NCBI GenBank assembly: GCA_919901565.1
Contig: CAKKPE010000138.1
Coordinates: 11,936 to 75,935, forward strand
DNA: 64,000 nucleotides
Source of the DNA: a bacterium
Lineage (GTDB): Bacteria > CG2-30-53-67
Direction: 5' to 3'
Positions 1,648 through 53,491 of this stretch are shown here, piece by piece (the first letter of the stretch is position 1; every line of letters begins with the position of its first letter). The notes under the pieces are model-generated. The model had not been told where the DNA came from, did no database searches, and worked only from the letters and a program-made list of their open reading frames with translations. Position numbers and translations under genes: made by a program.

Positions 1648-1865
1648 CAGAGAATATTCGGTAACACTTTAAAATTCAGGGTTCAATGCAGGGGGAAAAG
1701 GGAGGACGGGAACAGGATTTTCCTTCTCCCCTTGGGGAGAAGGTTAGGATGAGGGGGCTCTTTCCGGTCAACCCCTCACTATTTCCCTCTGCCTATCATG
1801 GGGAAGAAGGCCTTTTTACGACTTAATCTACAGTTCAACTTAAACACGAAAGAGCAAATATATCT

Positions 1866-9382: not shown

Positions 9383-9424
9383 AAAATGGGTGTCTGAGGG
9401 GCTGTTGAAAAAGTATTTTTCTGG

Positions 9425-9525
9425 TCTGATGCTGTCATTCCCGCGTAGGCGGGAATCCAGGACTCATTGATTCTTGTGGATTCCGGGTCTCGTTTCACTT
9501 GCCCGGAATGACAATCCAGCTTCTG
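9425..9525. repeat. MITE-like element with GTCATTCCCG terminal inverted repeats
   Basis: It contains gctGTCATTCCCGCGtaggCGGGAAT and an inverted end CCCGGAATGACAatcc. A related copy lies at 50236..50335. Confidence 0.5.
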
Positions 9526-9635
9526 TAGCAGACTTTTTCAACAGCTCCTCTGACCCCAATTTCACTCTTTCCTTCCTTACTTTCTTTTTCTTTTCATTCT
9601 CCTATAGTGTCGTGTCAACCTTTTAGTGTCACCCC

Positions 9636-9800
9636 CTCATCCTAACCTTCTCCCCTATGGGGAGAAGGAATTTATTGATTGCCCTAAACCTTGTCCCCAA
9701 AGGAACTGAATCTCCATAATTGTGACACAGTCTCTATTGGGATAAGGGATGTTTGACTTCCTCTCCCCTTGGGGAGGATTGAGGGGGGGATACGTCATTT
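9636..9800. repeat. REP-like GC-rich palindromic repeat family, two copies
   Basis: The copies read CCTTCTCCCCtaTGGGGAGAAGG plus a CCCCCTCATCCTAAC module (9640-9680) and CTCTCCCCttGGGGAGG plus a GAGGGGG module (9760-9790). Confidence 0.7.
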
Positions 9801-9939
9801 TAGACGTGACACGGCACTATAACTTCTTGAATTTTCTCCATCCTTCTCAAATTTAGACTGCATATCTTATATTTTGAACATGAAGGCGCTTTGTTCGCGA
9901 AAAATACATCTATCTGGGGTGTTGTGCCTCAGGTTTATA

Positions 9940-10766: not shown

Positions 10767-10859
10767 AGAGTTTAAATCGTTCAAAAAGTTCAAATGGTTC
10801 AATTCGGTTAAACGGTTTAAACGGCTTAAACTATTTGAACGGCTTGAGCAGTTTTATAG

Positions 10860-12521
<1,662 letters not shown>

Positions 12522-12635: not shown

Positions 12636-12790
12636 GGGCTGTCCCTTCTCCCCCGATGGGGGAGAAGGTTGGGATGAGGGGTAAAGATTCGATTTTCCCC
12701 CTCACCCCTGATTGATACATTCGAGGGCGGGCCTTTGTCCTCTCCCCCCTGCGGGGGAGAGGAGACTTCTCGATGTAAGTCTTCGCCCAC
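12636..12790. repeat. REP-like palindromic repeat cluster
   Basis: It contains CCCTTCTCCCCCgaTGGGGGAGAAGG, GTTGGGATGAGGGG, CCCTCACCCCTGATTGATACATTCGAGGGCGGGCCTTTGTCC and CTCTCCCCCCtgcGGGGGAGAGG. Confidence 0.7.
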
Positions 12791-12943
12791 CAATAGGGGC
12801 AAGGGGACGAGGGAGCAAGAGTAGAAGGTTGAAAGGTTGAAGAGTTGAAAGGTTCAAGGGTTTTTCTTGAGCCTATAAGCTTTGAAATCCTGAAATCCTT
12901 GAGCTTTGGAACCCCGTAACCCTCGATCCGTTCAGCCAAGTGA

Positions 12944-13804: not shown

Positions 13805-13807
13805 CCC

Positions 13808-13985
13808 ATCACCTCTCTCCTCTCCCCGCGGGGGAGAGGAAGTAAGAAGGGATGCCATCTCTCCCCTTGCGGGAGAGGAAGCAAAGAGGGATACAACCTC
13901 TCCCCTTGCGGGAGGGGAAATAAAGAGAGATACTACCACCATATCCCCTTTCCCCTTGTGTGGGGGTTAGGGTGAGGGGGAGAAA
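13808..13985. repeat. Three tandem CTCTCCCC-N-GGGGAGAG hairpins plus GGGTGAGGGGG module (REP-like)
   Basis: The hairpins ctctccccgcgggggagagg, ctctccccttgcgggagagg and ctctccccttgcgggagggg are spaced about 36 bp apart within the kdsA-kdsD intergenic region. Confidence 0.7.
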
Positions 13986-16329: not shown

Positions 16330-16515
16330 GGGCGAAGACTTAGTGGTACTGTTCATAAATACGGTCGTATTCGAGTGCCGTAGGGCGTTCTCCTCTGCGT
16401 TGTGCTCCTTGCGGTGTACCAGAGGGGTACGCCTCAGTCGCGCGCCTTGATGAGACCGCCCTACGACCATCTCGGTACGTTACCATATTTATGAACAGGA
16501 CCACTTAGATCGAGA
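16330..16515. repeat. Long imperfect hairpin element (~50-bp arms) of the GTGGTnCTGTTCATAAATA family
   Basis: Arm 1 is cttagtggtactgttcataaatacggtcgtattcgagtgccgtagggcg and arm 2 is its imperfect reverse complement. Related sequences lie at 33712..33748 and 50160..50205. Confidence 0.55.
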
Positions 16516-16548
16516 AGTCTCCTCTCCCCCGCAGGGGGGAGAGTCCGG
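16508..16548. repeat. REP-like palindrome (CTCTCCCCCgcaGGGGGGAGAG)
   Basis: It lies immediately 3' of the mazG stop codon. Confidence 0.6.
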
Positions 16549-17338: not shown

Positions 17339-17387
17339 GGAGGAATCATAAAACTTTCAAGGTGCAGAGTCAATAAACGAATTATGC

Positions 17388-17640
17388 TCATTTCCCCCCT
17401 CACCCCCGATTGATAAATTCGAGGGCAGGCCTTTGTCCTATCCTCATGGAAAGAGGAAGTTCAATTGTCCCTTCTCCCCTGAGGGGAGAAGGTTAGGATG
17501 AGGGGGCTCCTTCCGGTCAACCCCTCACCCTTGCCCTCTCCCCATTCATGGGGAGAGGGTAGCTGCTATGGCCTAATTTTTTCTATGTCCCTTCTCCCCA
17601 TGGGGGAGAAGGTTAGGATGAGGGGGTATTATTATTGCTC
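17388..17640. repeat. REP-like palindromic repeat cluster (four units)
   Basis: The units read GTCCCTTCTCCCCtgaGGGGAGAAGGTTAGGATGAGGGGG, CCCCTCACCCTTGCCCTCTCCCCattcatGGGGAGAGGG and ttctatGTCCCTTCTCCCCatGGGGGAGAAGGTTAGGATGAGGGGG. Confidence 0.75.
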
Positions 17641-17782: not shown

Positions 17783-17995
17783 ATCTTTCGTAAGAAAGTT
17801 AAACGGCCGTAGAAATTAAAGATGAAGAATCAAAAATCAAAATGACAGTGTAAAAATCAAATTTATATTTTTCAATTTTTATATTTTGATTTGTCATTTT
17901 GATTTTTTATATTTGACCCTTGATTCTTAAGATGTGCAAGAAATATTTTAATTTCCAATCTCTGTGTGGTTCAACTTAAACACGAAAGAGAGGAT
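17783..17995. mobile_element. ~200-bp MITE-like element: TIR (CTTTCGT..AAGTT.AAC), AT-rich long palindrome, conserved right module GTGCAAGAA...TTTGATTTCCAAT...GGTTCAACTTAAACACGAAAGAG
   Basis: Copies lie at 29120..29325 and 53285..53488. Palindrome-only copies lie at 36838..36930 and 38935..39040, and a right-end-only copy at 1806..1860. Confidence 0.6.
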
Positions 17996-19723: not shown

Positions 19724-20053
19724 GTGGAAATCAGCAGACACCATGATGAGGGATTAAGAGTGAAGAAAGTTGAAGAAATCAAAAAGACTCTCGAAAAAAA
19801 CAAATCCACGATTCAAAGGCGATTCAAAGTAAAAGAAATCTGTATCTTCGGATCTTACGTCAGAGGGGAATCCAAAGATAAGAGCGATTTGGATATCCTT
19901 GTTGAGTTTTCTCAACCCGTAGGTTTTTTTGCCTTCCTGGATCTCGAGGAATACCTGACCGATTTGCTTGGAGTCAGAGTGGATCTTGTATCGAAAAAGG
20001 CATTGAAGCCTAAGATTGGCAAGAATATCCTGAAAGAGATGATCCCAGTATGA
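19724..20053 (+). CDS. mntA: Nucleotidyltransferase-family antitoxin (MntA-like, type VII TA)
   Basis: The minimal nucleotidyltransferase motif is [24 protein letters not shown]. The likely start is GTG at 19760. The stop overlaps the next start (ATGA). Confidence 0.7.
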
Positions 20054-20310
20054 CAAAAAGGGAGTATGGTGACTACCTTCAGGATATTCTCGATTCCATT
20101 ACCGACATGGACGAATTCGTGCAGGGCATGACATTTGAGACATTCCATAAAGACAAGAAGACAGTGAATGCAGTCATACGGAGCATTGAGATTATAGGTG
20201 AGGCGGCAAAAAACATACCCGCTTCATTCCGAAATCAACATCCAGAAATTCCGTGGAAGAAGATGGCGGGAATGCGCGATAAACTCATCCATGGATACCC
20301 ATCATCCTGA
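20050..20310 (+). CDS. hepT: HepT-like toxin (DUF86, RNase)
   Basis: The DUF86 motif reads [41 protein letters not shown]. There is a 4-bp overlap with the upstream nucleotidyltransferase gene. Confidence 0.7.
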
Positions 20311-20497
20311 CCTTCTCCCCGCAGGGGAGAAGGGACATAAGGAAGAGATCAGGATTAAGATTACGACACAGCCTCGTAGGGGAGAAGTGATCTTCACCGT
20401 TCATCCCCGGATACTCAAGACGAATACTCGTGACATAAAACTCTTGACGTTGCCTGCCTTGAGGATGTCCGCTTGGGGGATAAGATGAACCCGGGTA

Positions 20498-23999: not shown

Positions 24000-24275
24000 G
24001 TTGTTTATTCCTTATGTTCCTTCTCCCTTTGGGGAGAAGGAACCCGAAAGTTTTTAATCTTCTCTATGTCCCTTCTCCCCTTTGGGGAGAGGGGACTTGC
24101 GAGGTTCTAATTTTTCTATGTCCCTTCTCCCCTTTGGGGAGAAGGTTAGGATGAGGGTGGCTCTCTTTCCTGTCAACCCCTCACCCTTGCCCTCCCCGGA
24201 GGGGAGAGGGGACTTGTGGTGATAATCTTTTCTATGTTCCTTCTCCCCTTTGGGGAGAAGGGATCTGAGGGTCCA
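24000..24275. repeat. Tandem array of 4-5 REP-like units (ttctatGTCCCTTCTCCCCtttGGGGAGA...)
   Basis: The units are spaced about 55-60 bp apart. The intervening sequences are partly similar to each other, so this is not a CRISPR array. It lies between addA and the DUF559 gene. Confidence 0.7.
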
Positions 24276-24627
24276 CCCCATTTTTTTCATCGATACGTTT
24301 CTTGATGGTTTCATAAACCCCTTCGATATTGTTCAATATTTCCAGATTATTGAACCTTAATATTTCTACTCCTGCTTTGGACAACACTTGTGTTCTGAAT
24401 ATATCTTGCTGTCTCCCATCATCTTCAAAGTGCTGCCCTCCATCTGCCTCGATCCCAAGTTTGTATTCAGCGGGATAGAAGTCCAGTATGTATTCGCCAA
24501 TTGGATACTGCCGCCTGAATTTTACTCCATCCATCTGACGATTTCGTAATATTGTCCAGATTTTCTTTTCCGCATCTGTTTGATTCTTTCGGAGTGACTG
24601 GCATTTATTTATATTTTTCCGTTTCAT
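24232..24627 (-). CDS. DUF559 (Vsr-like endonuclease fold) protein
   Basis: The sequence DAEKKIWTILRNRQMDGVKFRRQYPIGEYILDFY is typical of DUF559. The C-terminus runs into a REP-like repeat. Confidence 0.55.
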   Translation of the reverse strand: MKRKNINKCQSLRKNQTDAEKKIWTILRNRQMDGVKFRRQYPIGEYILDFYPAEYKLGIEADGGQHFEDDGRQQDIFRTQVLSKAGVEILRFNNLEILNNIEGVYETIKKRIDEKNGVDPQIPSPQRGEGT

Positions 24628-24689
24628 GGGTCACCTGCTTTCCCCCCCACCCTTGCCCTCCCCGAAGGGGAGAGGGGACTTGCGAGGAT

Positions 24690-27600
24690 CTAACCTTCCC
24701 GGATTCTGCATACCGGGCTTAACTCACAATAGTCCGGGCACTTTTTTTGCGTTACGGGGAACTTTCCCTGCCGGATCGCCTCCACATATTCCCGGATATA
24801 CCGCATGGAGGCTTCCATGAGTTCTTTGAAGTTCTCGTCGTTCTGGATCTGTGTCTTTTTTTCTCCTGAACGAAGAAGATAAAAAGAGCCGTTCTTCAAT
24901 TCCCGTTGATTGGAGAAGATCGTGCCGGCCCATGCGGCATAGACCGGGAGCTGAAGGCTTTCACCTTTCATGATCTGTGCTGCGCCCGGGGCGCTCTTTC
25001 CGGACTTGTAGTCCACGATGGAGAAGAACGGCTTGTCACCGGACGTGCTGAGGTCGATCCGGTCCACCTTGCCCAGGATCCGGATCTTTCCGGTCTCCGA
25101 ATCCATGGTAAGCGGCTCGGTGCTGGAGATGGGATCGTTCAGCTGGAAGGGTTTCATACCGAAGCAGGCCTCGAAGTGCGACGGCACGTCTCCGGTTTCC
25201 CGGTGTTCCTCGACCTCCTGGTCGATGAACCGGTCAAGGGTCCGGTGGACTTCCTCTTTTCGCACCTCCCATATCTTTCTGTGCCCCGGGATCCCCCTGG
25301 CCTCTGCCCTGTTGAGTTCCTCTTCGGCTGTCCGGTGCATGTTCTTTCTTGCCTGTTCCAGGTTGTCTGCGTTTATGCCCGTGCCGGTCTCCCGGAGATG
25401 CGCGGCATAGAAACGCTGAAGGATCCGGTGATAGAGGCTCCCCAGGTCCCTGGCCTCGACCTCGTCTTCCACCTCTTCCACGGGCTGGACCTTGAGCTCC
25501 CGTTCGCAGAAGTAGGTAAACGGGCATGCCCCGTAGCGCTCGAGCGCTGTGACCGAGAACGGGGCCTCCTGCTCCCGGAGGAGCGCCGCGGCCGCGGCCC
25601 CGAGAAGGCCTGAGTAGGGCCCGTCTCCGCTGTTGCGGTCTTCTGTGACCCGGAGCCCGTGCAGCAGGGGCCAGAGTTTATGCGGCCGTGTCCTCGCCAG
25701 GAGGTTGAAAAGGGAAGGGGCTTCCGGGTTTACGGATGCAGGGCGGCTGAGGTTCAGGAAGGTGTATTCCAGAAGCTCCTTGTCCCTGAAGATATCCTCC
25801 GGATCCGGAAGAGGGTCATTGATGGATACCTCTTTCTTTTCGATTGCGCCCTCTTCGAACAAGCTCCATACGCGGTCCATGAAACGGGAAGAGAGAAGCT
25901 CCCTCCCCTCGGCATCGGTACGGGGATAGGTGAGATACAGGGTCCGGGCCGCTGAGGCGGCGCAGAGGAGAAAGAGGACCTCTTCCTCTTCACGCCGGTG
26001 TGAGGCGAGGGTAATCCACCGGTCCGGGCCAAGGGTTTTGTTCAGAATGATCCGGTCTTTTTCCCTGAAGAGCGGGTCCGGGGGGTGGGCCCGGGGGAAG
26101 ACTTCTTCCACGAGCCCGCCGATAAAGACCACGGGCCTTCTGAGCCCGCGCATGCCGGGTGCGTCCGTGACCAGCACGGCATCTTCGGCCGGCGGGTCGG
26201 GGATGTACTGGGCCTCGGAGAGGGTATGGTTCAGGATGCGCACAAACTCGGAGAGCGGGATATTCATCCCGCTGTGTGAGGCTTCATACTCGCGGACCAT
26301 CTGGGCGAGAAGCTCCCTGAGGGCATCCAGCCCGCGCTGGTCCCGGCGGACCAGACGGAGCTCCGGGCAGGCGGATATCTGTTCCTCCATCCGGAAAGAC
26401 CGGACCATCTCTTCAATGGCCTCCGCGAACCTCCCCGGAGCGGCCTTGCCCGGCAGGGCCTCGATGGTCTTGAACAGGGCCCGAATGATTCTGGCGCAGG
26501 CCTGGTAGTCCCCGATATTTTTTGTACCCTGCTTTATGCGTTCTTCTCTTTTCTCCAGTTCTTCACTCTCCAGGCTTCCCTGCTGAAGCAGTTTCAGGTT
26601 CAGGTCCAGGTACTGTATCCTGGAGGCAAAGCGGCTCTCCCATTCCTCTTTGCCCCCGTGGACCATGGCCTCTCTCGAAAGGATGTCGAAACGTTCCGGA
26701 GGAAGATTCTCCTTGAGCAGAGGCTCGAACCGGATATAGTCTGATCGGATCAGCCGGACCACGGCTTCCCTCCGGTATCCCCCCAATGGGATTTCCAGGA
26801 TTCCCATGACGGTCCGGACCAGGGGGTTGCTTCTCAGGGGAAGGCCGCTCCCCATGCGTATGGGGATGCCGTGGGAGCGAAAGACCTCCGTGACCTTGTC
26901 CTGGTAGTCGCCGAGGCTTCGGAAGACTACGGCGAAATCCTTGAAGGAAAGTCCCTGTCCATATTGGAGCCTGCGGATCTTTCTCGCGATCTCTTCCACC
27001 TCCCGGTAGGCTCCGGGCGAGTTGAGTATCCGGATGGACCCCTTGCACTGGATCCGTGGCGCGATCTCTTCACTGTTGAGAAAATGCTTTCTTAGATGAT
27101 GGAGGGGATCGACCGGATCTTTTTCATCAGCGGAGAGAGGCTTGATTATTGCGTGCGGCCAGACGCTGTCCAGCCGGTCCAGGGTCCGCCGGGTGAACGT
27201 AGAGCCCGGTCCGGTACCATGGACATGTGGCAGGGTGATGAAGATCCCTTCTATGTTCCGGAGCCCGGAGAGTGCGGCAAGAAGACGAAGCTGAATGGGC
27301 GTAAAGTCATAGAATCCTGTGACGAAGATTTTTTGCAGACGGGTCATGGACCCGGGGTTCTGTTCGAGGATTCCCGCTGCGAGCGGGAAGAGATCCTCAC
27401 GGTCCAGCAGGCCCCGGGTCCTGCGCCGGGTTTCGTACTCGTGATAGATTCTTGCCGCCTCGATGATCCTGGGCGAGGCCTGGGCGGAAAGAGATTTTTT
27501 CAGGAACTCCTCTGAAGAGACGCCTCCATCCTTGAGTGTGCGGATGAGGTCGACAACCAGATCCATAAGCCCCCGGGTTTCCCTGACTTCGACAAGGTGC

Positions 27601-29085: not shown

Positions 29086-29355
29086 AGATTTTCCCCGGAT
29101 GGATGGAAAAAGTGTAGCACAAAATCAGGGCCGTTTAAAGAATAATAGAAATTAAAAATCAAAAATCAAAAATCAATATGACAGAGTAAAAATCAAATTT
29201 TGTATTTTGATTTGTCATTTTGATTTTTTATCTTTGATGTTTGATGCTTCAGGTGCGCAATAAAACCTTTGATTTCCAGTTTTTTACGCGGTTCAGCTTA
29301 AACTCGGAATAGGCAAATATGGCAGATGGATCAGGGGCTTACATCGGAGTTATTG

Positions 29356-36200: not shown

Positions 36201-36949
36201 AATTTGAATACTCCATGATACACAGGTTATAATCTATTATTCTATATTATATTTATGGCATATAAGTGTCAAGTTGTTTCCCCTGCCAAACTGAATGAAC
36301 ATCATAAGAGACGTGATGATATCAGGTGTTATTCATGGGGTTTCTGTTAACCTGTTTCATGAAAGCGGTTGAAGAGAGGCGGTGTGGCTGAATATCCGGA
36401 TAAGTGAAACGCCGCGCCTTTCAGATTATGGTCTTATCCGAACAATGCGGCCCGGCCTGGCTTGATCATCACACAATCCGAACTAATAGAATCTTTTTAA
36501 AGGTTCTGTGGATTTAAAAAGAACCTTGCCGCTGCTTTGCCTGATCCCGTTTATGAAATCGTAAAAATTATGTAACTGTTTGAAATTCAAAGTAATTTAA
36601 GTGATTAAAATATAGGCAAACTGCTCTTTATCCTTGACTGATGCCCTTGCCCTCCGGTTCTTCACACAGATTTTCACAGGCTTTTCACATTTTTTGTGAA
36701 CATCACTCATAACCCTCTAAAATATCATGGGGATTTTTAGATACAGAGATGTGATGGCGTGTGAATCCCGTAAGTCAGGCGGCCGGACGCGGTCCAGGGT
36801 CTCTCGGCCAAAAAAAGTATTTCTTGCACGCATTAAGAATCAAAGATCAAATATAAAAAATCAAAATGACAAATCAAAATATAAAATTTGATTTTTAATC
36901 TGTCATTTTGATCTTTGATTCTTTATCTTTACTTTCTATATCAGAACGG

Positions 36950-37828
36950 TTACCCGATCCAGGTGTGCCAGTCTTCGCTGATATCCCCGCTCAATTTGTA
37001 ACGGAGCATGGCATCCGTGCACGGACATTCGCGTTTGAGCGCATCCAGATGCTTAAGGGTTTTCCTGAGGATTTCCGGAAACAGGGCCAGTGCCTGTTTT
37101 AATTTTTCTCTGTCCCGGGGAGGGAGGGTCCCCTCGAAGAGGACCCCTTTCTCATAGGGGAGCGGGCGCACCCCTTCAGCATAATTAGAGATATAGCAAA
37201 GCGGGGCGTAACAGATTTCAAGCTCACGGGAGAGAAAGGGCTCCGGGACCAGGGTCATACCCACCAGGTCTCCTCCTATCTGTTTCATGTATTTGATTTC
37301 AGCCGGTGTCTCCAGTCTCGGCCCTTCAGTGCAGACGTATGTCCCTTTTTCATGGCAAGGAAGGCCGAGTTCTCCCAATGCCTTTTGAAAGGAGAGGCGG
37401 ATCTCCGGACAGAAAACCGGGTTCTGGCGGATGAAGCCGATTCCTTTCCCTTTAAAGAAGGTAGAGACACGGTTCCGGGTCAGATCGATGAGATCGTCCG
37501 GGAGGATGAGCTCTCCGGGGTGCATGGAGGCGTGGATGGCTCCGGGCCCGGACCATGAAAGAATGCGCTCGGCCCCCAATTCCTTGGCGGCATAAATGTT
37601 GGCGCGGTAATTGACAAAAGGCGCGGTGACATGGTATCCGCTTACACCGTGGCGGGAGAGGAATCCGACATGGGTCCCGGATATCTCCAGAATACGAATG
37701 GGAGAGGCCTCGCCGTAAGGTGTTTGCAGGGTTGCGGTTTCTTTTTCCCGGCCGAATTTTTCTACCGGGATATCGTAGGCCCCGCTTCCGCCGATGATCA
37801 GGGTTTTGATTTTTGGTTTGTTTGTCAT
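36950..37828 (-). CDS. Purine nucleoside phosphorylase family protein, MTAP-like
   Basis: The N-terminus KTLIIGGSGAYD resembles the MTAP IIGGSG motif. It is adjacent to two futalosine-pathway radical-SAM genes. Confidence 0.6.
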   Translation of the reverse strand: MTNKPKIKTLIIGGSGAYDIPVEKFGREKETATLQTPYGEASPIRILEISGTHVGFLSRHGVSGYHVTAPFVNYRANIYAAKELGAERILSWSGPGAIHASMHPGELILPDDLIDLTRNRVSTFFKGKGIGFIRQNPVFCPEIRLSFQKALGELGLPCHEKGTYVCTEGPRLETPAEIKYMKQIGGDLVGMTLVPEPFLSRELEICYAPLCYISNYAEGVRPLPYEKGVLFEGTLPPRDREKLKQALALFPEILRKTLKHLDALKRECPCTDAMLRYKLSGDISEDWHTWIG

Positions 37829-38911: not shown

Positions 38912-38989
38912 TTCTTCTCTTCTGTGGAATCCTTATAAATCAAAAATAAAATATCAAAGATCAAAAATACAGAGCAAAAATCAAAATTT

Positions 38990-40135
38990 TTAATTGTCAT
39001 TTTGATTTTTGATATTTAATTCTTGATTTTTATCATACCGCCTGATCTCGCGATAAAGCGTATCCCGTTCCACCGGGACCTTGCCGGCTTTTTGAATCAT
39101 CCGGACCAGGGCCTCCCGGGAGAGGGCCTCGGAGGTCATGGCCCCCGCGGCATGGGTGATCTTTTCCTCCACCACGGTGCCGTCTATATCGTCCACACCG
39201 AAAAGGAGCGAGACCTGCGCTATTTTTTCTCCGAGCATGATCCAGAACGCCTTGATGTGGCTGAAATTATCCAGGAAGATGCGGCTGACTGCCATGGTCT
39301 TGAGGTCGTCGAACCCCGTGGTCATTCCGGTCTGCGGGATGCGCGTATTTTCAGGATGAAAGGCCAGCGGGATAAAGGCCTGGAATCCGCCGGTACGGTC
39401 CTGCAGGTCCCTGAGCCTTGACATGTGGTCGATCCGGGCCCTGGTGTCCTCCACATGGCCATAGAGCATGGTGGCGTTGGATTTGAGGCCTGCGGCATGC
39501 ACCGCCTCCATGATCTCGAGCCACTTCTCCCCGGTGATCTTTTCCGGGCAGATGGACTGCCGGACCCGGGGGTCAAAGATCTCTGCGCCGCCTCCGGGCA
39601 GGGACCCGAGGCCCGCCTGCTTGAGTTCCCGCAGCAGGTCCCCGATGGGGAGTCCGGTGATCCGGCTGAGATAGTCGATCTCCACCGCGGTGAAGGCCTG
39701 GATGTGGATATGCGGGAAGCGCTGCCGGAGCGTGGAAAGGAGATCCAGGTAGTAGTCCAGGGTGAGGTGGGGGTGGAGCCCTCCCACGATATGGAACTCC
39801 GTGGCCCCCTCGGCCGCTCCCTGCTCTGCCTTCTGGATGACCTCGGAGAGGTCCATGGTATAGGCGTCCGGATCCTTCTCATCCCGGCTGAAGGCGCAGA
39901 ACGTGCAGCGGTTCACACAGATATTGGTATGATTGATGTGGCGGTTGACGATAAAGTAAGCCAGGTCCCCGTTTTTGGCCCGGCACCGCATGGAGGCGAT
40001 CTTTCCCAGCCGGATCAGGTCATGCGACGCCATCAGGGCCAATGCCTCGTCAGGGCTGATCCGCAGGCCTTCTTCCACCTTGTTCTGAACAATGTCAAGC
40101 AGGTCCATGGTTTGCTCCATTCCGGGTGGAACCAT
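38990..40135 (-). CDS. Radical-SAM enzyme of the MqnC/MqnE family, paralog of the upstream gene
   Basis: The CxxxCxxC motif is CVNRCTFCAF. It is paralogous to 37835..38911. Confidence 0.7.
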   Translation of the reverse strand: MVPPGMEQTMDLLDIVQNKVEEGLRISPDEALALMASHDLIRLGKIASMRCRAKNGDLAYFIVNRHINHTNICVNRCTFCAFSRDEKDPDAYTMDLSEVIQKAEQGAAEGATEFHIVGGLHPHLTLDYYLDLLSTLRQRFPHIHIQAFTAVEIDYLSRITGLPIGDLLRELKQAGLGSLPGGGAEIFDPRVRQSICPEKITGEKWLEIMEAVHAAGLKSNATMLYGHVEDTRARIDHMSRLRDLQDRTGGFQAFIPLAFHPENTRIPQTGMTTGFDDLKTMAVSRIFLDNFSHIKAFWIMLGEKIAQVSLLFGVDDIDGTVVEEKITHAAGAMTSEALSREALVRMIQKAGKVPVERDTLYREIRRYDKNQELNIKNQNDN

Positions 40136-40310
40136 ACCACAGTTGGAGAGGATGAATCAATGAAATGAAACAAGGCATGCTTACGGGGTCAGCATAAAAT
40201 TATAAATATAAGGGAGGCGGCTTATTGTAAAATGGGTGTGGAATAATTTTCTCAAAAGTGGAAAAACTTTTCCTGCATCTATGGGGTCAGGTCTTGCGGC
40301 TTGCTTTTGG

Positions 40311-41162
40311 TCATCGCTCACCCTTTGCGATCCTGCTGATCGTCGAATAATGAAGACCCAGATGGGAGGCGATTTCGGTCTGCCGATACCCATATTGCTC
40401 CACCGCTTTTATGATCAATAGCTGTCTCATCTGTCGGCTCATACGAGTCTCTTCCCGAAAGAGCTTCTCCAACGATGGACGGTGCGCATAACGCTGACTC
40501 CGGGGGATCTCAGGAATATCCTTGCATTTTTTAAGGTAGTCCGACAGCTTCTCGACAAAGCTTTCCTCTCCCAGGAGTGTCTGACCCCGGACCTCGTTCC
40601 ACATTGTCTTCTGTCCAACACCCAGGGATACGAACTGCCGGTACCCCTTTCCCGCTTCGCCTCTTTTCCCGTCAAACTGGCTGAGCACCCAGTCTGTTGT
40701 CAGGCAGGGATGGGGTTTTACCCGTCCTGCTGTGGCAAGGTAACTGGAGAATGCATAGTCCTCGGGCTTCGCAACCATTTTTGCACGAACCGGATTGAGC
40801 ACAACATATCGGCACACTTCAAGAAGGTGGCTGTCCTTCTGGATCAGGATGGCCTTGTACCGGCCCTGAAATATATGGCCTGTTTTTCCATGCCATTTAT
40901 TAAAGCGTTGCGTATAGAGGCCGTTCAGTTGGCGCATGCCGATGGAGAGATTTCCGTCCGGGGTTTCGATGAGGAGATGATAGTGGTTGGTCATGAGGCA
41001 GTAGGCGTGACAAAGCCAATGGTAACGTTTATTCACATGCTGAAGGGCATGGAGAAAGTTGTTGCGGTCCTGATCATCCTTGAATACCGGCTTTTTATCG
41101 TTGCCCCGTGAGGTCACGTGATAGACTGCGCCGGGATATTCTATGCGGAGGGGACGGGCCAT
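40311..41162 (-). CDS. IS200/IS605-like Y1 (HuH) transposase domain fused to a C-terminal HTH; RAYT-like
   Basis: The HuH motif is HYHLLIETP, with QGRYKA downstream. The C-terminal HTH reads YRQTEIASHLGLHYSTISRIAKG. The start is ATG at 41162 (MARPLRIEYPG); the longer ORF to 41450 looks like a spurious extension. Confidence 0.65.
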   Translation of the reverse strand: MARPLRIEYPGAVYHVTSRGNDKKPVFKDDQDRNNFLHALQHVNKRYHWLCHAYCLMTNHYHLLIETPDGNLSIGMRQLNGLYTQRFNKWHGKTGHIFQGRYKAILIQKDSHLLEVCRYVVLNPVRAKMVAKPEDYAFSSYLATAGRVKPHPCLTTDWVLSQFDGKRGEAGKGYRQFVSLGVGQKTMWNEVRGQTLLGEESFVEKLSDYLKKCKDIPEIPRSQRYAHRPSLEKLFREETRMSRQMRQLLIIKAVEQYGYRQTEIASHLGLHYSTISRIAKGER

Positions 41163-41324
41163 AAAAAGACAATAACAAGCGGGAAGGGAAAAGTCAAGCA
41201 GCAAGACCTGACCCTGGGTTTTCGAAGTGAAAAGGGCATTGACGCGGCACAAGAGCCGTTGTATGGTGATCATGAAACCGTTCAACGGTTTAAACAGTTT
41301 AAACGATTTAAATGGTTTTTCCCT

Positions 41325-42092
41325 ATGATCGATATTCACTGTCATATCCTTCCGGGACTGGACGACGGTCCTGAGAATTTTCAGGGGACTCTCGAGATGT
41401 GCCGCATGGCCGTTGACTGTGGGATCACATCTGTTTTTGCGACCCCGCATCTTTACAACAGCCTATTTACGACAAACAGGGCATCGATCCTTGATGTATA
41501 TGAGGAGACCCGGGCGGCCCTTGAATCTGAAGGGGTTCCCTTGAGCCTCTATCTGGGCGCTGATCTGCACCTGGTTCCTGACCTGGGGGAGAAGATATTG
41601 AAAAACCAGGCGCTGACCTTGAATAACAGCCGGTATTTCCTGCTGGAACTTCCGTCTACGATACTCCCGCCGAATTTGGACCAGGTCGTCCAGAAAATGA
41701 TCTCAGACAGTTTTGTGCCGATCATCACCCATCCGGAAAGAAACCCGGTAATCCTGAAACGGGAGGAGATTCTTTTTGACCTGCTGGAGCAGGGGGCCCT
41801 GTGCCAGATCACGGCCATGAGCCTGACCGGGGAATTTGGAAAAGATTGTGAACGTTTTGCCTGCAGGATGCTCGAGGCCGGCGCCGTGCATTTCATTGCC
41901 TCGGATGCCCATTCCACGGGCTGGCGCAAGCCCGATCTTTGCCCTGCGGTCAGCGTGGCCGAACAGATCATTGGAGCAGAGGATGCCCGGCGGTTGGTCA
42001 AGGACTATCCGGAAGCGATCCTTTCCGGGGGAGGCATAGGCCCGGTTTCGGTAAAAAGGCCTCCAAAACCCAAAAGGTTCTGGTTTTTCTGA
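41325..42092 (+). CDS. PHP-family tyrosine-protein phosphatase (CpsB/YwqE-like)
   Basis: The N-terminus MIDIHCHILPGLDDGP is the CpsB signature. Confidence 0.7.
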   Translation: MIDIHCHILPGLDDGPENFQGTLEMCRMAVDCGITSVFATPHLYNSLFTTNRASILDVYEETRAALESEGVPLSLYLGADLHLVPDLGEKILKNQALTLNNSRYFLLELPSTILPPNLDQVVQKMISDSFVPIITHPERNPVILKREEILFDLLEQGALCQITAMSLTGEFGKDCERFACRMLEAGAVHFIASDAHSTGWRKPDLCPAVSVAEQIIGAEDARRLVKDYPEAILSGGGIGPVSVKRPPKPKRFWFF

Positions 42093-53221: not shown

Positions 53222-53491
53222 GGGGTCTCCTTCTCTTTATTGAACCAGAGACGGCGGTTTCCGTCAATTTGAGAGATTATAAAATTTACGGTACTGTCGT
53301 AAGGAAGTTGAATGGCCATGGAAATCAAGAATAAAAAATCAAACATCAAAATGACAAAGTAAAAATCAAATTTTATATTTTGATTTGTGATTTTGATTTT
53401 TTATATTTGATTTTTGATTCTTAAGGCGTGCAAGAAGTCCTTTGATCTCCAATTTTTGCGTGGTTCAACTTAAACAGGAAAAAGGGAAATG

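What the first reader, a model, noticed from the sequence alone, without database searches (positions are those of the whole stretch)
17388..17640. Dispersed REP-like GC-rich palindromic repeat family present at 10 or more intergenic sites
- Core hairpins CCTTCTCCCC-N2-4-GGGGAGAAGG or CCTCTCCCC-N3-4-GGGGAGAGG recur with companion modules GTTAGGATGAGGGGG, CCGGTCAACCCCTCACCCTTGCCCTCTCCCC and CCCTCACCCCYGATTGATAMATTCGAGGGCRGGCCTTTGTCC.
- Sites: 1716-1800, 9636-9800, 12636-12790, 13808-13985, 16508-16548, 17388-17640, 20306-20340, 24000-24275, 24636-24690.
- Many sit immediately 3' of stop codons (mazG, hepT, addB, the WaaP-like gene) or inside operons (kdsA-kdsD).
- This is REP/REPIN-like behaviour.
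- An IS200-like HuH (RAYT-like) gene lies in the same window (40311..41162).
- The repeats may act as terminators, mRNA stabilisers or recombination hotspots. They also create long spurious ORFs and are hazards for misassembly.
Basis: seen in the sequence. Interest (0 to 1): 0.6.

Follow-up and report, generated by a model that had tools for sequence, protein, structure and literature searches.

The report
Triplex-motif repeats tied to DUF559 nuclease
The GC-rich repeats are real and belong to the known BoxC/"triplex-motif" repeat family (not classical REPs moved by the nearby RAYT-like gene), and here and in many other bacteria the same units bracket a small DUF559 endonuclease gene, which may be the long-missing partner enzyme of this family.

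Summary
Sixteen CTCCCC-N-GGGGAG hairpins lie in nine intergenic clusters between 1.7 and 24.7 kb, against 0.13 expected by chance.

The unit is not a plain palindrome. It is a three-block motif: a pyrimidine arm, its complement, then a mirror copy (for example CCTTCTCCCC-N3-GGGGAGAAGG-TTA-GGATGAGGGG). That is the architecture of E. coli BoxC/PIT/TMECO "intrastrand triplex" repeats.

All three blocks covary, C:G*G to T:A*A, at two or more positions, both within the window and across more than 100 genomes from many phyla.

The RAYT-like gene at 40311-41162 carries its own, unrelated flanking inverted repeat and is not linked to these units.

An apparently intact DUF559 (Vsr-like) endonuclease gene at 24232-24627 sits inside the largest cluster. 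DUF559 genes elsewhere, including E. coli ycjD, are typically bracketed by such units in inverted orientation. The 95-nt doublets have the same two ends as a DUF559 element, separated by about 14 nt instead of the gene.

Close relatives show filled and empty sites, and hepT is truncated at a unit.

The repeat is a sequence variant of a known kind. The DUF559 link appears to be unreported and can be tested.

The parts
1722..1756 (+). Triplex-motif (TM) unit, type 1: CCTTCTCCCC-TT-GGGGAGAAGG-TTA-GGATGAGGGG. First half of a doublet. Lies 74 nt after the stop of the WaaP-like kinase gene.
1772..1810 (-). Decayed inverted partner unit of the doublet (CCCCTCAC-TATTT-CCCTCTGCC...GGGGAAGAAGG).
9633..9668 (-). 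TM unit, type 1, inverted orientation (CCCCTCATCC-TAA-CCTTCTCCCC-TAT-GGGGAGAAGG). Lies in the GT9-kdsB spacer, inside a 219-nt stretch bracketed by 15-nt inverted repeats (9603-9617 / 9807-9821).
9760..9789 (+). Decayed unit: hairpin CCTCTCCCC-TT-GGGGAGG followed by ATTGAGGGGGGG.
12644..12681 (+). TM unit, type 1, with a TTG loop 2. Lies in the pyrG-kdsA spacer. Independent Logan contigs end in its hairpin loop at 12661.
12697..12762 (-). Inverted TM unit whose loop 2 is expanded to about 30 nt. With 12644-12681 it forms a doublet.
   Evidence: (D15); expanded loop 2 also seen next to DUF559 genes
13805..13840 (-). TM unit, type 3 (TCCTCTCCCC / GGGGAGAGGA / AGGTGATGGG). Starts 1 nt after the kdsA stop. 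The 92%-identity relative L200 has the perfect form, AGGTGAGGGG.
13820..13936 (+). Tandem array of 3 x 39 nt, made of hairpin-only copies, in the kdsA-kdsD spacer. Present in L200. Absent in L201 and L202.
   Evidence: (D10)
13945..13980 (+). Decayed unit ending in TTA-GGGTGAGGGG, just upstream of kdsD.
16522..16543 (.). Hairpin-only copy 6 nt after the mazG stop. It is part of a 339-nt spacer that is only 12 nt in relative L200. The adjoining module is interrupted by a 160-nt MITE-like insertion (16344-16503).
17394..17459 (-). Decayed inverted unit with expanded loop 2. Homology with relative L200 stops exactly at 17387/17388.
   Evidence: (D15)
17470..17505 (+). TM unit, type 1. First half of the best-preserved doublet.
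17521..17559 (-). TM unit, type 2, E. coli-like (CCCTCTCCCC / GGGGAGAGGG / CAA / GGGTGAGGGG). Inverted partner of 17470-17505.
17590..17625 (+). Solo TM unit, type 1.
20298..20333 (-). TM unit, type 1, with third block GGATGATGGG. That block encodes the last codons and the stop of hepT (20050-20308), which ends at Pfam profile position 95 of 120.
24014..24270 (+). Array of five hairpins between addA and the DUF559 gene:
- hairpin-only copies at 24019-24040, 24072-24092 and 24240-24260;
- a type 1 unit at 24123-24158 (+);
- an inverted type 2 unit at 24177-24211 with a 1-nt deletion.
   Evidence: (D4, D5, D7, D8)
24232..24627 (-). DUF559 (PF04480) Vsr-like PD-(D/E)XK endonuclease gene, 131 aa. 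Family-invariant residues are present. Its last residues (PSPQRGEGT) are encoded by hairpin 24240-24260.
24643..24677 (-). Type 2 unit with the same 1-nt deletion as 24177-24211 (a direct repeat of it, 89% identical). Lies 15 nt upstream of the DUF559 start and immediately after the addB stop.
   Evidence: (D8)

Best explanation
**What it is.** The repeats are BoxC/PIT/TMECO-type 'intrastrand triplex motif' (TM) units. Each unit has five parts in order:
- a 10-nt pyrimidine block (Y);
- a short loop;
- the complement of Y (R1);
- a 3-nt loop;
- a third block (R2) that is the mirror image of R1, with T at one A position.

As single-stranded DNA such a unit can fold into a hairpin with R2 laid antiparallel on R1. 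This is a purine-motif triplex.

In the window the units occur in five forms: solo units, inverted doublets, hairpin-only remnants, tandem arrays, and units with an expanded loop 2.

**Proposed role.** They are not RAYT-mobilised REPs. I propose they are the terminal inverted repeats, and the gene-less derivatives, of a compact selfish element of about 0.5 kb. Its only gene is a DUF559 (Vsr-like PD-(D/E)XK) endonuclease. One such gene, with the family's invariant residues, lies at 24232-24627 inside the largest cluster.

**Shown:**
- the three-block architecture;
- covariation of all three blocks;
- the cross-phylum distribution;
- gain and loss between close relatives;
- the DUF559-TM bracket architecture.

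**Inferred:**
- The nuclease recognises or cuts the folded or doublet form and thereby drives copying (homing-like or repair-mediated).
- Arrays and hairpin-only copies arise by slippage or recombination between units.
- The effects on neighbouring genes (hepT truncation, spurious ORFs, SD-like and ATG/GTG-containing R2 blocks) are by-products.
For: **Identity**
- The unit matches the architecture of the E. coli TMECO list and pattern. It also occurs as two-subtype inverted doublets, as in E. coli.

**Triple covariation**
- In the window, all 9 complete units carry the R2 that fits their own R1, across three subtypes.
- In viral contigs the R1/R2 combinations were GG 78, AA 2, mixed 0.
- In genomes with R1 = ..AAGG, R2 was A in 119 cases and G in 9. 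Most of those 9 have a C-type Y block.
- Among units not selected by the search pattern, the triplex score is bimodal: 68 of 549 score 9-10 out of 10, against 0.3% in the control.
  - Position 8: C:G*G 56, T:A*A 7, T:A*T 2.
  - Position 10: C:G*G 55, T:A*A 12.
- Further covarying variants occur in GC-rich loci.
- Mirror repeats cannot be homogenised by recombination, so this needs selection.
- The A/A variant removes two of the four G-runs, which argues against a G-quadruplex.

**Dynamics**
- Filled and empty sites occur between relatives with 80-92% KdsA identity.
- E. coli shows filled, empty and collapsed alleles at one locus.
- hepT is truncated at a unit.

**DUF559 link**
- In TM-selected loci, 5 of the 6 DUF559 hits lie within 150 nt of a unit, in five different lineages.
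- The common order is TM (G-rich strand) - gene - TM (C-rich strand).
- E. coli ycjD ends in a TM-like hairpin, with TMECO #9 168 nt downstream.
- In DUF559-selected viral loci, 21 of 31 have TM-like units in the flanks: 2.66 per kb against 0.61 per kb elsewhere. The 5' unit typically starts 153-173 nt before the conserved motif.
- 76 of 120 DUF559 homologues have TM-encoded termini, against 0 of 120 KdsA and 0 of 120 RAYT-like controls.
- Three low-GC contigs each have a TM unit just upstream of the DUF559 gene, and two of them also have one just after its stop. All but one or two of their GC-rich hairpins lie there.
- A Caulobacter DUF559 protein causes SOS induction in vivo (PMC12907096).
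- The Vsr/DUF559 group includes a homing endonuclease (PMC3424549).
Against: - No cleavage, binding or mobility data exist for any DUF559 protein on TM DNA.
- Published in vivo DMS footprinting did not detect the triplex in E. coli (PMC4666352).
- With a strict TM detector only 1 of 33 DUF559-selected viral loci scored. The higher figure relies on a relaxed detector and on reading flanks by eye. Many of those loci are orthologous, giving about 11 of 18 independent lineages.
- One locus (L241) has the opposite polarity.
- About a third of the DUF559 genes examined have no TM flank.
- A lone PD-(D/E)XK nuclease cannot carry out strand transfer.
- No target-site duplication or clean insertion boundary was seen.
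- The flanking units of the window's own DUF559 gene are degenerate, and the two type 2 copies are direct rather than inverted repeats.
- Only 64 kb of this genome was available, and every copy lies in its first 25 kb.
Confidence: 0.62

Rival explanations
1. TM units and DUF559 are separate entities. The units spread or persist by some other route, such as replication slippage, host repair or an unknown transposase. The DUF559 gene is a free-standing homing-type or cassette gene that prefers to land in the spacer of TM doublets, or is retained there because the flanking units supply a ribosome-binding site and a 3' hairpin.
For: - Most TM units have no DUF559 gene nearby: 5 of 118 loci do.
- E. 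coli has 23 units and one ycjD gene.
- The third block contains SD-like GAGGGG and ATG/GTG just upstream of DUF559 starts.
- The group includes a homing endonuclease.
- A remnant of a second ycjD 3' end lies between units in K-12.
Against: - In the low-GC contigs all but one or two of the GC-rich hairpins in each are the ones next to the gene. The units therefore travel with the gene rather than pre-exist there.
- Different DUF559 lineages have different, cognate flank variants at a near-constant distance.
Confidence: 0.22
2. These are classical REP/REPIN elements, mobilised in trans by the RAYT-like Y1 transposase at 40311-41162.
For: - The gene passes the NCBIfam REP_Tyr_transpos cut-off.
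- The repeats are intergenic palindromes with inverted doublets.
Against: - The gene's flanks carry a different 25-nt inverted repeat, found only there in the window.
- The same flank motif accompanies homologues in a contig that has no TM units.
- 0 of 120 homologues have TM-encoded termini.
- No GTAG/CGTC head is present.
- The same TM sequence occurs across many phyla, unlike lineage-specific REPs.
Confidence: 0.04
3. The hairpins are selected for a function in RNA, as transcription terminators, attenuators or 3' mRNA stabilisers.
For: - Many copies follow stop codons.
- In other genomes the units are enriched between convergent genes: 29 of 62 against 76 of 325 background gaps.
- The hairpins are stable, about -10.6 kcal/mol each.
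Against: - Only one hairpin is followed by a T-run.
- There is no orientation bias relative to transcription (13 against 10).
- Copies also lie in a divergent promoter region (17388-17640) and inside operons.
- There is no Rfam match.
- Conservation of the third block is not explained by an RNA hairpin, and purine-motif triplexes do not form in RNA (PMC4666352).
- The E. coli units showed no promoter or terminator activity.
Confidence: 0.1
4. The copies are a local segmental duplication confined to this region, or an assembly artefact.
For: All copies lie in the first 25 kb of the window.
Against: - An independent ENA contig is 99.98% identical over 17.8 kb.
- The flanks of the copies are unrelated genes.
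- The same subfamily occurs at a non-homologous locus in related metagenomes and in more than 100 genomes.
Confidence: 0.02

Closest known systems
E. coli BoxC / PIT elements / TMECO intrastrand triplex motifs (Hoyne et al. 2000; Holder et al. 2015, PMC4666352)
   Same: - Three-block Y - loop - R1 - 3-nt loop - R2 architecture with 9-10-nt blocks.
- TTA as the commonest second loop.
- T at the same position of the third block.
- Intergenic location in both orientations.
- Inverted doublets made of two subtypes.
- Association with local rearrangements.
   Different: - The dominant unit here has a compensated triple change (C:G*G to T:A*A at position 8). A second subtype has one at position 10.
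- No unit matches the published strict consensus.
- Some units have a 30-nt loop 2.
- Units also form 39- and 52-nt tandem arrays.
- The host is an unclassified groundwater bacterium, not a proteobacterium. KdsA relatives are labelled Nitrospirota, Nitrospinae or Deltaproteobacteria.
REP / REPIN elements with RAYT transposases
   Same: - Short GC-rich intergenic palindromes.
- Solo units and inverted doublets.
- A small nuclease gene bracketed by the units in inverted orientation, while most copies are gene-less.
   Different: - No GTAG/CGTC head.
- A third, mirror-repeat block is present.
- The bracketed gene is a PD-(D/E)XK (Vsr-like) DUF559 endonuclease, not an HUH Y1 transposase.
- Near-identical unit sequences are shared across phyla.
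Vsr-fold homing endonucleases (I-Bth0305I family) and Vsr
   Same: DUF559 is placed in the same PD-(D/E)XK group (PMC3424549). It is a small, stand-alone nuclease gene with a patchy, selfish-looking distribution.
   Different: It is not inside an intron or intein. It is flanked by structured repeats. No target or activity has been defined for it. Vsr itself is a mismatch-repair nickase linked to Dcm.
MITEs
   Same: The doublets are short, gene-less, inverted-repeat derivatives that look like internally deleted copies of a gene-bearing element.
   Different: No target-site duplication was seen. There is no recognised transposase.

Membership tests
BoxC / PIT / TMECO triplex-motif repeats | Three consecutive blocks: a pyrimidine block, its reverse complement, then a mirror copy of the purine block. 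Short loops (3-6 nt and 3 nt). | tested here: met
   Nine complete units score 9-10 out of 10 on triplex compatibility. The R1-N3-R2 pattern matches 8 times, with 0.02 expected.
BoxC / PIT / TMECO triplex-motif repeats | Published strict consensus: CCCTCNCCC-N3-6-GGGNGAGGG-N3-GGGNGAGGG. | tested here: not met
   0 matches in the window. Type 1 differs by the compensated A/T triple. The type 2 unit has a longer first loop.
BoxC / PIT / TMECO triplex-motif repeats | Intergenic location, no strand bias, and inverted doublets pairing two subtypes. | tested here: met
   compare.
BoxC / PIT / TMECO triplex-motif repeats | Forms an intrastrand triplex as single-stranded DNA (shown by CD/NMR for the E. 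coli sequence). | not testable with these tools
   Only indirect support: covariation of all three blocks. The folding tool models Watson-Crick pairs only.
REP / REPIN - RAYT | Conserved GTAG or CGTC tetranucleotide at the 5' end of the palindrome (from the literature on REPs; my own knowledge). | tested here: not met
   Units start with CC[CT]TCTCCCC and are preceded by variable sequence.
REP / REPIN - RAYT | RAYT gene flanked by the cognate REPs in inverted orientation. | tested here: not met
   The flanks carry an unrelated 25-nt inverted repeat found only there. The homologue locus L199 has no TM units. 0 of 120 homologues have TM-encoded termini.
REP / REPIN - RAYT | Dispersed intergenic copies, often as inverted doublets (REPINs). 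| tested here: met
Intrinsic terminators | GC-rich hairpin followed directly by a T-run. | tested here: not met
   Only hairpin 9646-9668 qualifies. Overall 18 sites were found against 17.5 expected.
DUF559 (PF04480) Vsr-like endonuclease (gene 24232-24627) | Pfam model match above the gathering score, and conserved family residues. | tested here: met
   PF04480: 117.1 bits against a cut-off of 20.6. PDB 3HRL: E = 1.5e-17. Invariant D49, E60, D62 and H66 in the alignment.
MITE | Terminal inverted repeats plus a target-site duplication, with a related autonomous element. | tested here: inconclusive
   The doublets share both ends with TM-DUF559-TM elements. No duplication is visible at filled versus empty sites.

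The most novel reading that the evidence does not exclude
BoxC/triplex-motif repeats and DUF559 endonucleases form a widespread repeat-nuclease partnership that has not been recognised before. It resembles REP-RAYT but is built on a Vsr-like PD-(D/E)XK nuclease.

- The about 0.5-kb unit TM - DUF559 - TM is the autonomous element.
- The 95-nt doublets and solo units are its gene-less offspring.
- The three-way covariation is the first evolutionary evidence that the intrastrand DNA triplex, or a protein reading that fold, matters in vivo.

If true, this would explain the origin and spread of BoxC, described in the 1990s and still without a function. It would also assign a role to E. coli ycjD.
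Probability: 0.4. Interest if true: 0.8.

Novelty: new variant of a known kind. Interest (0 to 1): 0.55.

Why it matters
BoxC/PIT/TMECO repeats have been known for about 30 years. There is still no accepted function, partner protein or mode of spread for them, and DUF559 is a large family of unknown role.

Two results here bear on that.

1. All three blocks of the unit covary, across phyla and at several positions. This is hard to explain without selection on a three-stranded fold or on something that reads it.
2. DUF559 genes, including E. coli ycjD, are bracketed by these units. This gives a concrete enzyme to test.

There are practical consequences too. The units break assemblies, extend or truncate gene calls (hepT, kdsD, DUF559 tails such as PPHLNPLPKGERK), and mark sites that differ between close relatives.

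Tried and rejected
- **Rfam.** A gathering-threshold scan of the window gave no match.
- **RAYT link.** Tested and rejected.
- **Terminator idea.** Tested and not supported.
- **Larger MITE with its own terminal repeats.**
  - GAGRCTGTGTCRYAAT is no commoner than chance in the window.
  - TATAGTGYCGTGTCA occurs only at 9603/9807.
  - Left as an isolated observation.
- **Metagenome scan with the doublet spacer.** It returned nine stretches that are a single locus in two alleles. This shows a second genomic site but gives no copy number.
- **The search for related loci with a DUF559 alignment.** I replaced it with a back-translated DNA pattern.
- **Strict TM detector on DUF559-selected loci.** It found only 1 of 33. 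Reading the flanks showed that many units have a hairpin inside loop 2, so I used a relaxed detector with an internal control.
- **Looking for target-site duplications.** None was seen in the window versus L200, or at E. coli hrpB-mrcB.
- **E. coli ycjD region as an empty-site test.** Uninformative, because an RND-pump island replaces the sequence in B2 and O157 strains.
- **G-quadruplex reading.** Considered and rejected because the type 1 variant destroys two of the four G-runs.
- **Neighbour-gene clustering.** The largest cluster was a spurious high-GC antisense ORF and was ignored.
Full report
**1. The observation**

- The hairpin core CTCCCC-N(1-8)-GGGGAG occurs 16 times, against 0.13 expected from shuffles.
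- The longer pattern GGGGAGARGG-N3-GGRTGAGGG occurs 8 times, against 0.02 expected.
- All copies lie between 1.7 and 24.7 kb. There are none in 25-64 kb.

Pfam and NCBIfam scans give the gene map:
- an LPS-core cluster, then kdsB, pyrG, kdsA and kdsD;
- a GGDEF-PilZ gene and mazG;
- an aldehyde dehydrogenase;
- mntA and hepT;
- addA, a DUF559 gene and addB.

Every repeat cluster is intergenic. One unit arm supplies the last codons of hepT.

The window comes from a groundwater metagenome. An ENA contig from the Hainich site is 99.98% identical over 17.8 kb. Two independent Logan contigs end exactly in the loop of hairpin 12648-12664. So the repeats are real and do break assemblies.

**2. Anatomy**

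The 'companion modules' are parts of one unit. The unit is Y (10 nt, pyrimidines), loop 1, R1 (the reverse complement of Y), a 3-nt loop 2, and R2. R2 is the mirror image of R1, with T at one A position.

Three subtypes occur in the window:
- Type 1: CCTTCTCCCC / GGGGAGAAGG / GGATGAGGGG.
- Type 2: CCCTCTCCCC / GGGGAGAGGG / GGGTGAGGGG.
- Type 3: TCCTCTCCCC / GGGGAGAGGA / AGGTGA(T)GGG.

Each of the nine complete units carries the R2 that fits its own R1.

Units occur in five forms:
- solo units;
- inverted doublets at 1722-1810, 12644-12762, 17470-17559 and 24123-24211;
- hairpin-only copies;
- tandem arrays of 3 x 39 nt at 13820-13936 and of about 52 nt at 24014-24270;

**3. What it is**

A full-text search for the core sequence led to Holder et al. 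2015 (PMC4666352). Their E. coli TMECO units were earlier called BoxC and PIT elements. An example is CCCTCGCCCC-TTT-GGGGAGAGGG-TTA-GGGTGAGGGG.

Those units share with the window's units:
- the same three blocks;
- the same TTA loop;
- the same T in the third block;
- intergenic location;
- the same habit of forming inverted doublets from two subtypes.

For the E. coli sequence, that paper reports or cites earlier work showing:
- a stable intrastrand purine-motif triplex for the isolated strand in vitro;
- no triplex signal in vivo;
- no promoter or terminator activity;
- increased local genomic variability.

The window's units do not match the published strict consensus. The difference is informative: type 1 differs by a change in all three blocks at one position.

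**4. Covariation**

- In viral contigs, the four possible R1/R2 combinations at that position were GG 78, AA 2 and mixed 0. The AA units had T in the Y block.
- In species-representative genomes searched with R1 fixed as ..AAGG, R2 had A in 119 cases and G in 9. Most of the 9 had a C-type Y block, so they look like singly mutated GG units.
- I also examined units in those loci that were not selected by the search pattern.
  - The triplex-compatibility score is sharply bimodal: 68 of 549 hairpin readings score 9-10 out of 10, against 0.3% in a positional control.
  - Two positions switch cleanly between C:G*G and T:A*A.
  - Position 8: 56 against 7, plus 2 T:A*T.
  - Position 10: 55 against 12.
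- GC-rich loci add further covarying variants.

Three inferences follow.
- A mirror repeat cannot be kept in step by recombination, so selection must act on the three-block relation.
- The A/A variant removes two of the four G-runs. This argues against a G-quadruplex.
- Purine-motif triplexes do not form in RNA. This points to DNA.

The same 23-mer class occurs in Gamma-, Alpha- and Deltaproteobacteria, Omnitrophota, Chloroflexota, Verrucomicrobiota, Planctomycetota, Bacteroidota and CPR bacteria.

**5. The RAYT idea**

The gene at 40311-41162 does pass the NCBIfam RAYT model. Four results count against a link to the repeats:
- It is flanked by its own 25-nt inverted repeat (40284-40308 and 41190-41214), which occurs nowhere else in the window.
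- The same flank motif accompanies three homologues in another contig that has no GC-rich units.
- None of 120 homologues has repeat-encoded termini.
- The units lack the GTAG/CGTC head of REPs.

The behaviour is REP-like, but membership in REP/RAYT fails.

**6. Function in RNA**

- Only one hairpin has a T-run, and terminator-like sites are not enriched.
- There is no Rfam match.
- In other genomes the units are about twice as common as expected between convergent genes. They show no orientation bias relative to transcription.

That pattern is what tolerated insertions show.

**7. Dynamics**

Relatives found through KdsA homologues give natural comparisons.
- In a 92%-identity relative (L200), the GGDEF-mazG spacer is 12 nt against 339 nt here.
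- Homology upstream of mazG stops exactly at 17387/17388, the left edge of the finding.
- The kdsA-kdsD array is present in L200 but absent in the 86% and 80% relatives.
- hepT ends at profile position 95 of 120, exactly at a unit.

In E. coli, the hrpB-mrcB doublet exists as three alleles:
- a filled allele;
- an empty allele;
- an allele collapsed to a single hairpin, which shows how hairpin-only copies arise.

The lineage-specific doublet spacer also occurs in JGI metagenomes, at a locus with no homology to the window.

**8. The DUF559 lead**

Clustering the genes next to TM units in the 118 genome loci picked out DUF559.
- Five of the six DUF559 hits lie within 150 nt of a unit. The hosts are Dyella, a Chloroflexota MAG, Pontibacter, a Verrucomicrobiia MAG and a Peribacteria MAG.
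- The window's own DUF559 gene (24232-24627) sits between two copies of a type 2 unit and ends inside a hairpin.
- The shared layout is a unit with its G-rich strand upstream, 0-60 nt of spacer, the ORF, then a unit in the opposite orientation at or after the stop.
- In E. coli K-12, ycjD ends in a TM-like hairpin. TMECO #9 lies 168 nt downstream in the spacer toward fabI, with a remnant of a second ycjD 3' end in between.

Reciprocal tests started from DUF559 rather than from the repeat:
- A back-translated DUF559 pattern found 33 viral-contig loci.
  - A strict detector scored only one of them.
  - Many flanks carry lineage-specific units with a small hairpin inside loop 2.
  - A relaxed detector finds them in 21 of 31 distinct loci, typically starting 153-173 nt before the conserved motif.
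  - Their density is 2.66 per kb in the flanks against 0.61 per kb elsewhere.
- Among the 120 closest DUF559 clusters in the protein collection, 76 have tails or heads that are translations of the unit. Examples are PPHLNPLPKGERK, PSPQSSPQRGEE, PLTLILSPKGRG, ..SPSP* and MRG/VRG.
  - The figure is 0 of 120 for KdsA homologues and 0 of 120 for RAYT-like homologues.
- In three low-GC contigs a TM unit lies just upstream of the DUF559 gene, and in two of them another lies just after its stop. All but one or two of the GC-rich hairpins in each contig lie there.

The doublets in the window pair a type 1 unit with an inverted type 2 unit. These are the same two ends implied by the 'MRG' heads and 'PPHLNPLP' tails, separated by about 14 nt instead of a gene.

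Background on the protein family:
- DUF559 is a Vsr-like PD-(D/E)XK nuclease.
- It is grouped with a homing endonuclease.
- A Caulobacter member causes SOS induction in vivo.
- I found no paper linking DUF559 to these repeats.

**9. Reading**

With high confidence, the finding is a sequence variant of the known BoxC/TM repeat family and is not a RAYT-dependent REP.

With moderate confidence, these units are the ends and the gene-less derivatives of a compact DUF559 element.
- The association and the architecture are shown.
- The mechanism is inferred: the nuclease would act on the folded or doublet form, followed by repair-mediated copying.
- The main rival is that DUF559 merely homes into pre-existing doublets.

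Weak points:
- No biochemistry exists.
- No target-site duplication was seen.
- About a third of DUF559 genes lack such flanks.
- One locus has reversed polarity.
- The DUF559-selected sample is non-independent.
- The relaxed detector is permissive.
- Only 64 kb of this genome could be examined.

Noticed in passing
17814-17963, 29145-29284, 53318-53457, 36838-36950, 38938-39030; boxes at 1833-1854, 17969-17990, 29291-29312, 53463-53484: A second, AT-rich palindromic repeat family (AAAATCAAAATGACA...TGTCATTTTGATTTT). Several copies are followed by a conserved GTTCAACTTAAACACGAAAGAG box 4-14 nt before the ATG of a + strand gene. It may be a shared leader or promoter module (D1/D2/D11).
   Followed up: no
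10780-10863, 41271-41327, 12826-12910; L200:1-45, L201:2440-2520: Tandem repeats with a 9-nt period, such as (TTTAAACGG)n and (GGTTGAAAG)n, often with an inverted partner. They lie in spacers upstream of genes. Relatives carry (GGGTCAAGG)n at the same spacers.
   Followed up: no
16344-16503: A MITE-like 160-nt insertion with terminal inverted repeats TGGTACTGTTCATAAATA and a CTTAG duplication. It is nested in a repeat module whose intact copy is at 12760-12790.
   Followed up: partly
9384-9562; L202:1895-2010: A MITE-like element with 31-nt inverted ends, containing GTCATTCCCGCGTAGGCGGGAATCC. The same motif lies in the pyrG-kdsA spacer of an 80% relative.
   Followed up: no
40284-41214: The RAYT-like Y1 transposase gene has a C-terminal HTH and its own 25-nt inverted repeats.
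- The family is 70-80% identical across thousands of metagenome proteins.
- Three copies lie within 5 kb in contig L199, each with the conserved upstream motif CTATAGGGTCAAGTCTT.
   Followed up: partly
20050-20308: hepT of the MntA/HepT toxin-antitoxin pair keeps the Rx4HxY motif. It lacks the last ~25 positions of the Pfam profile, and its last residues come from a repeat arm.
   Followed up: partly
L214 (IMG/VR contig), 1060-aa ORF: A DUF559 core and a TM-like unit lie in frame inside a ValRS-like ORF. This may be an insertion into a housekeeping gene.
   Followed up: no
L254/L255/L256 (E. coli hrpB-mrcB spacer): The K-12 TM doublet is absent in strain AR_0104. In strain 07_3636 it has collapsed to a single hairpin without the third block. 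About 150 of 5426 genomes lack most of it.
   Followed up: yes
L212 / L257 (E. coli fabI-ycjD region): About 2,080 of 5,426 E. coli genomes (for example S88 and O157:H7) lose homology to K-12 about 40 nt before TMECO #9. In S88 a TetR gene plus an RND efflux island follows.
   Followed up: partly
L246:1-4939: In one ENA contig the valS and uvrB genes upstream of a TM-DUF559-TM element are each called as two ORFs. These may be frameshifts or insertions.
   Followed up: no
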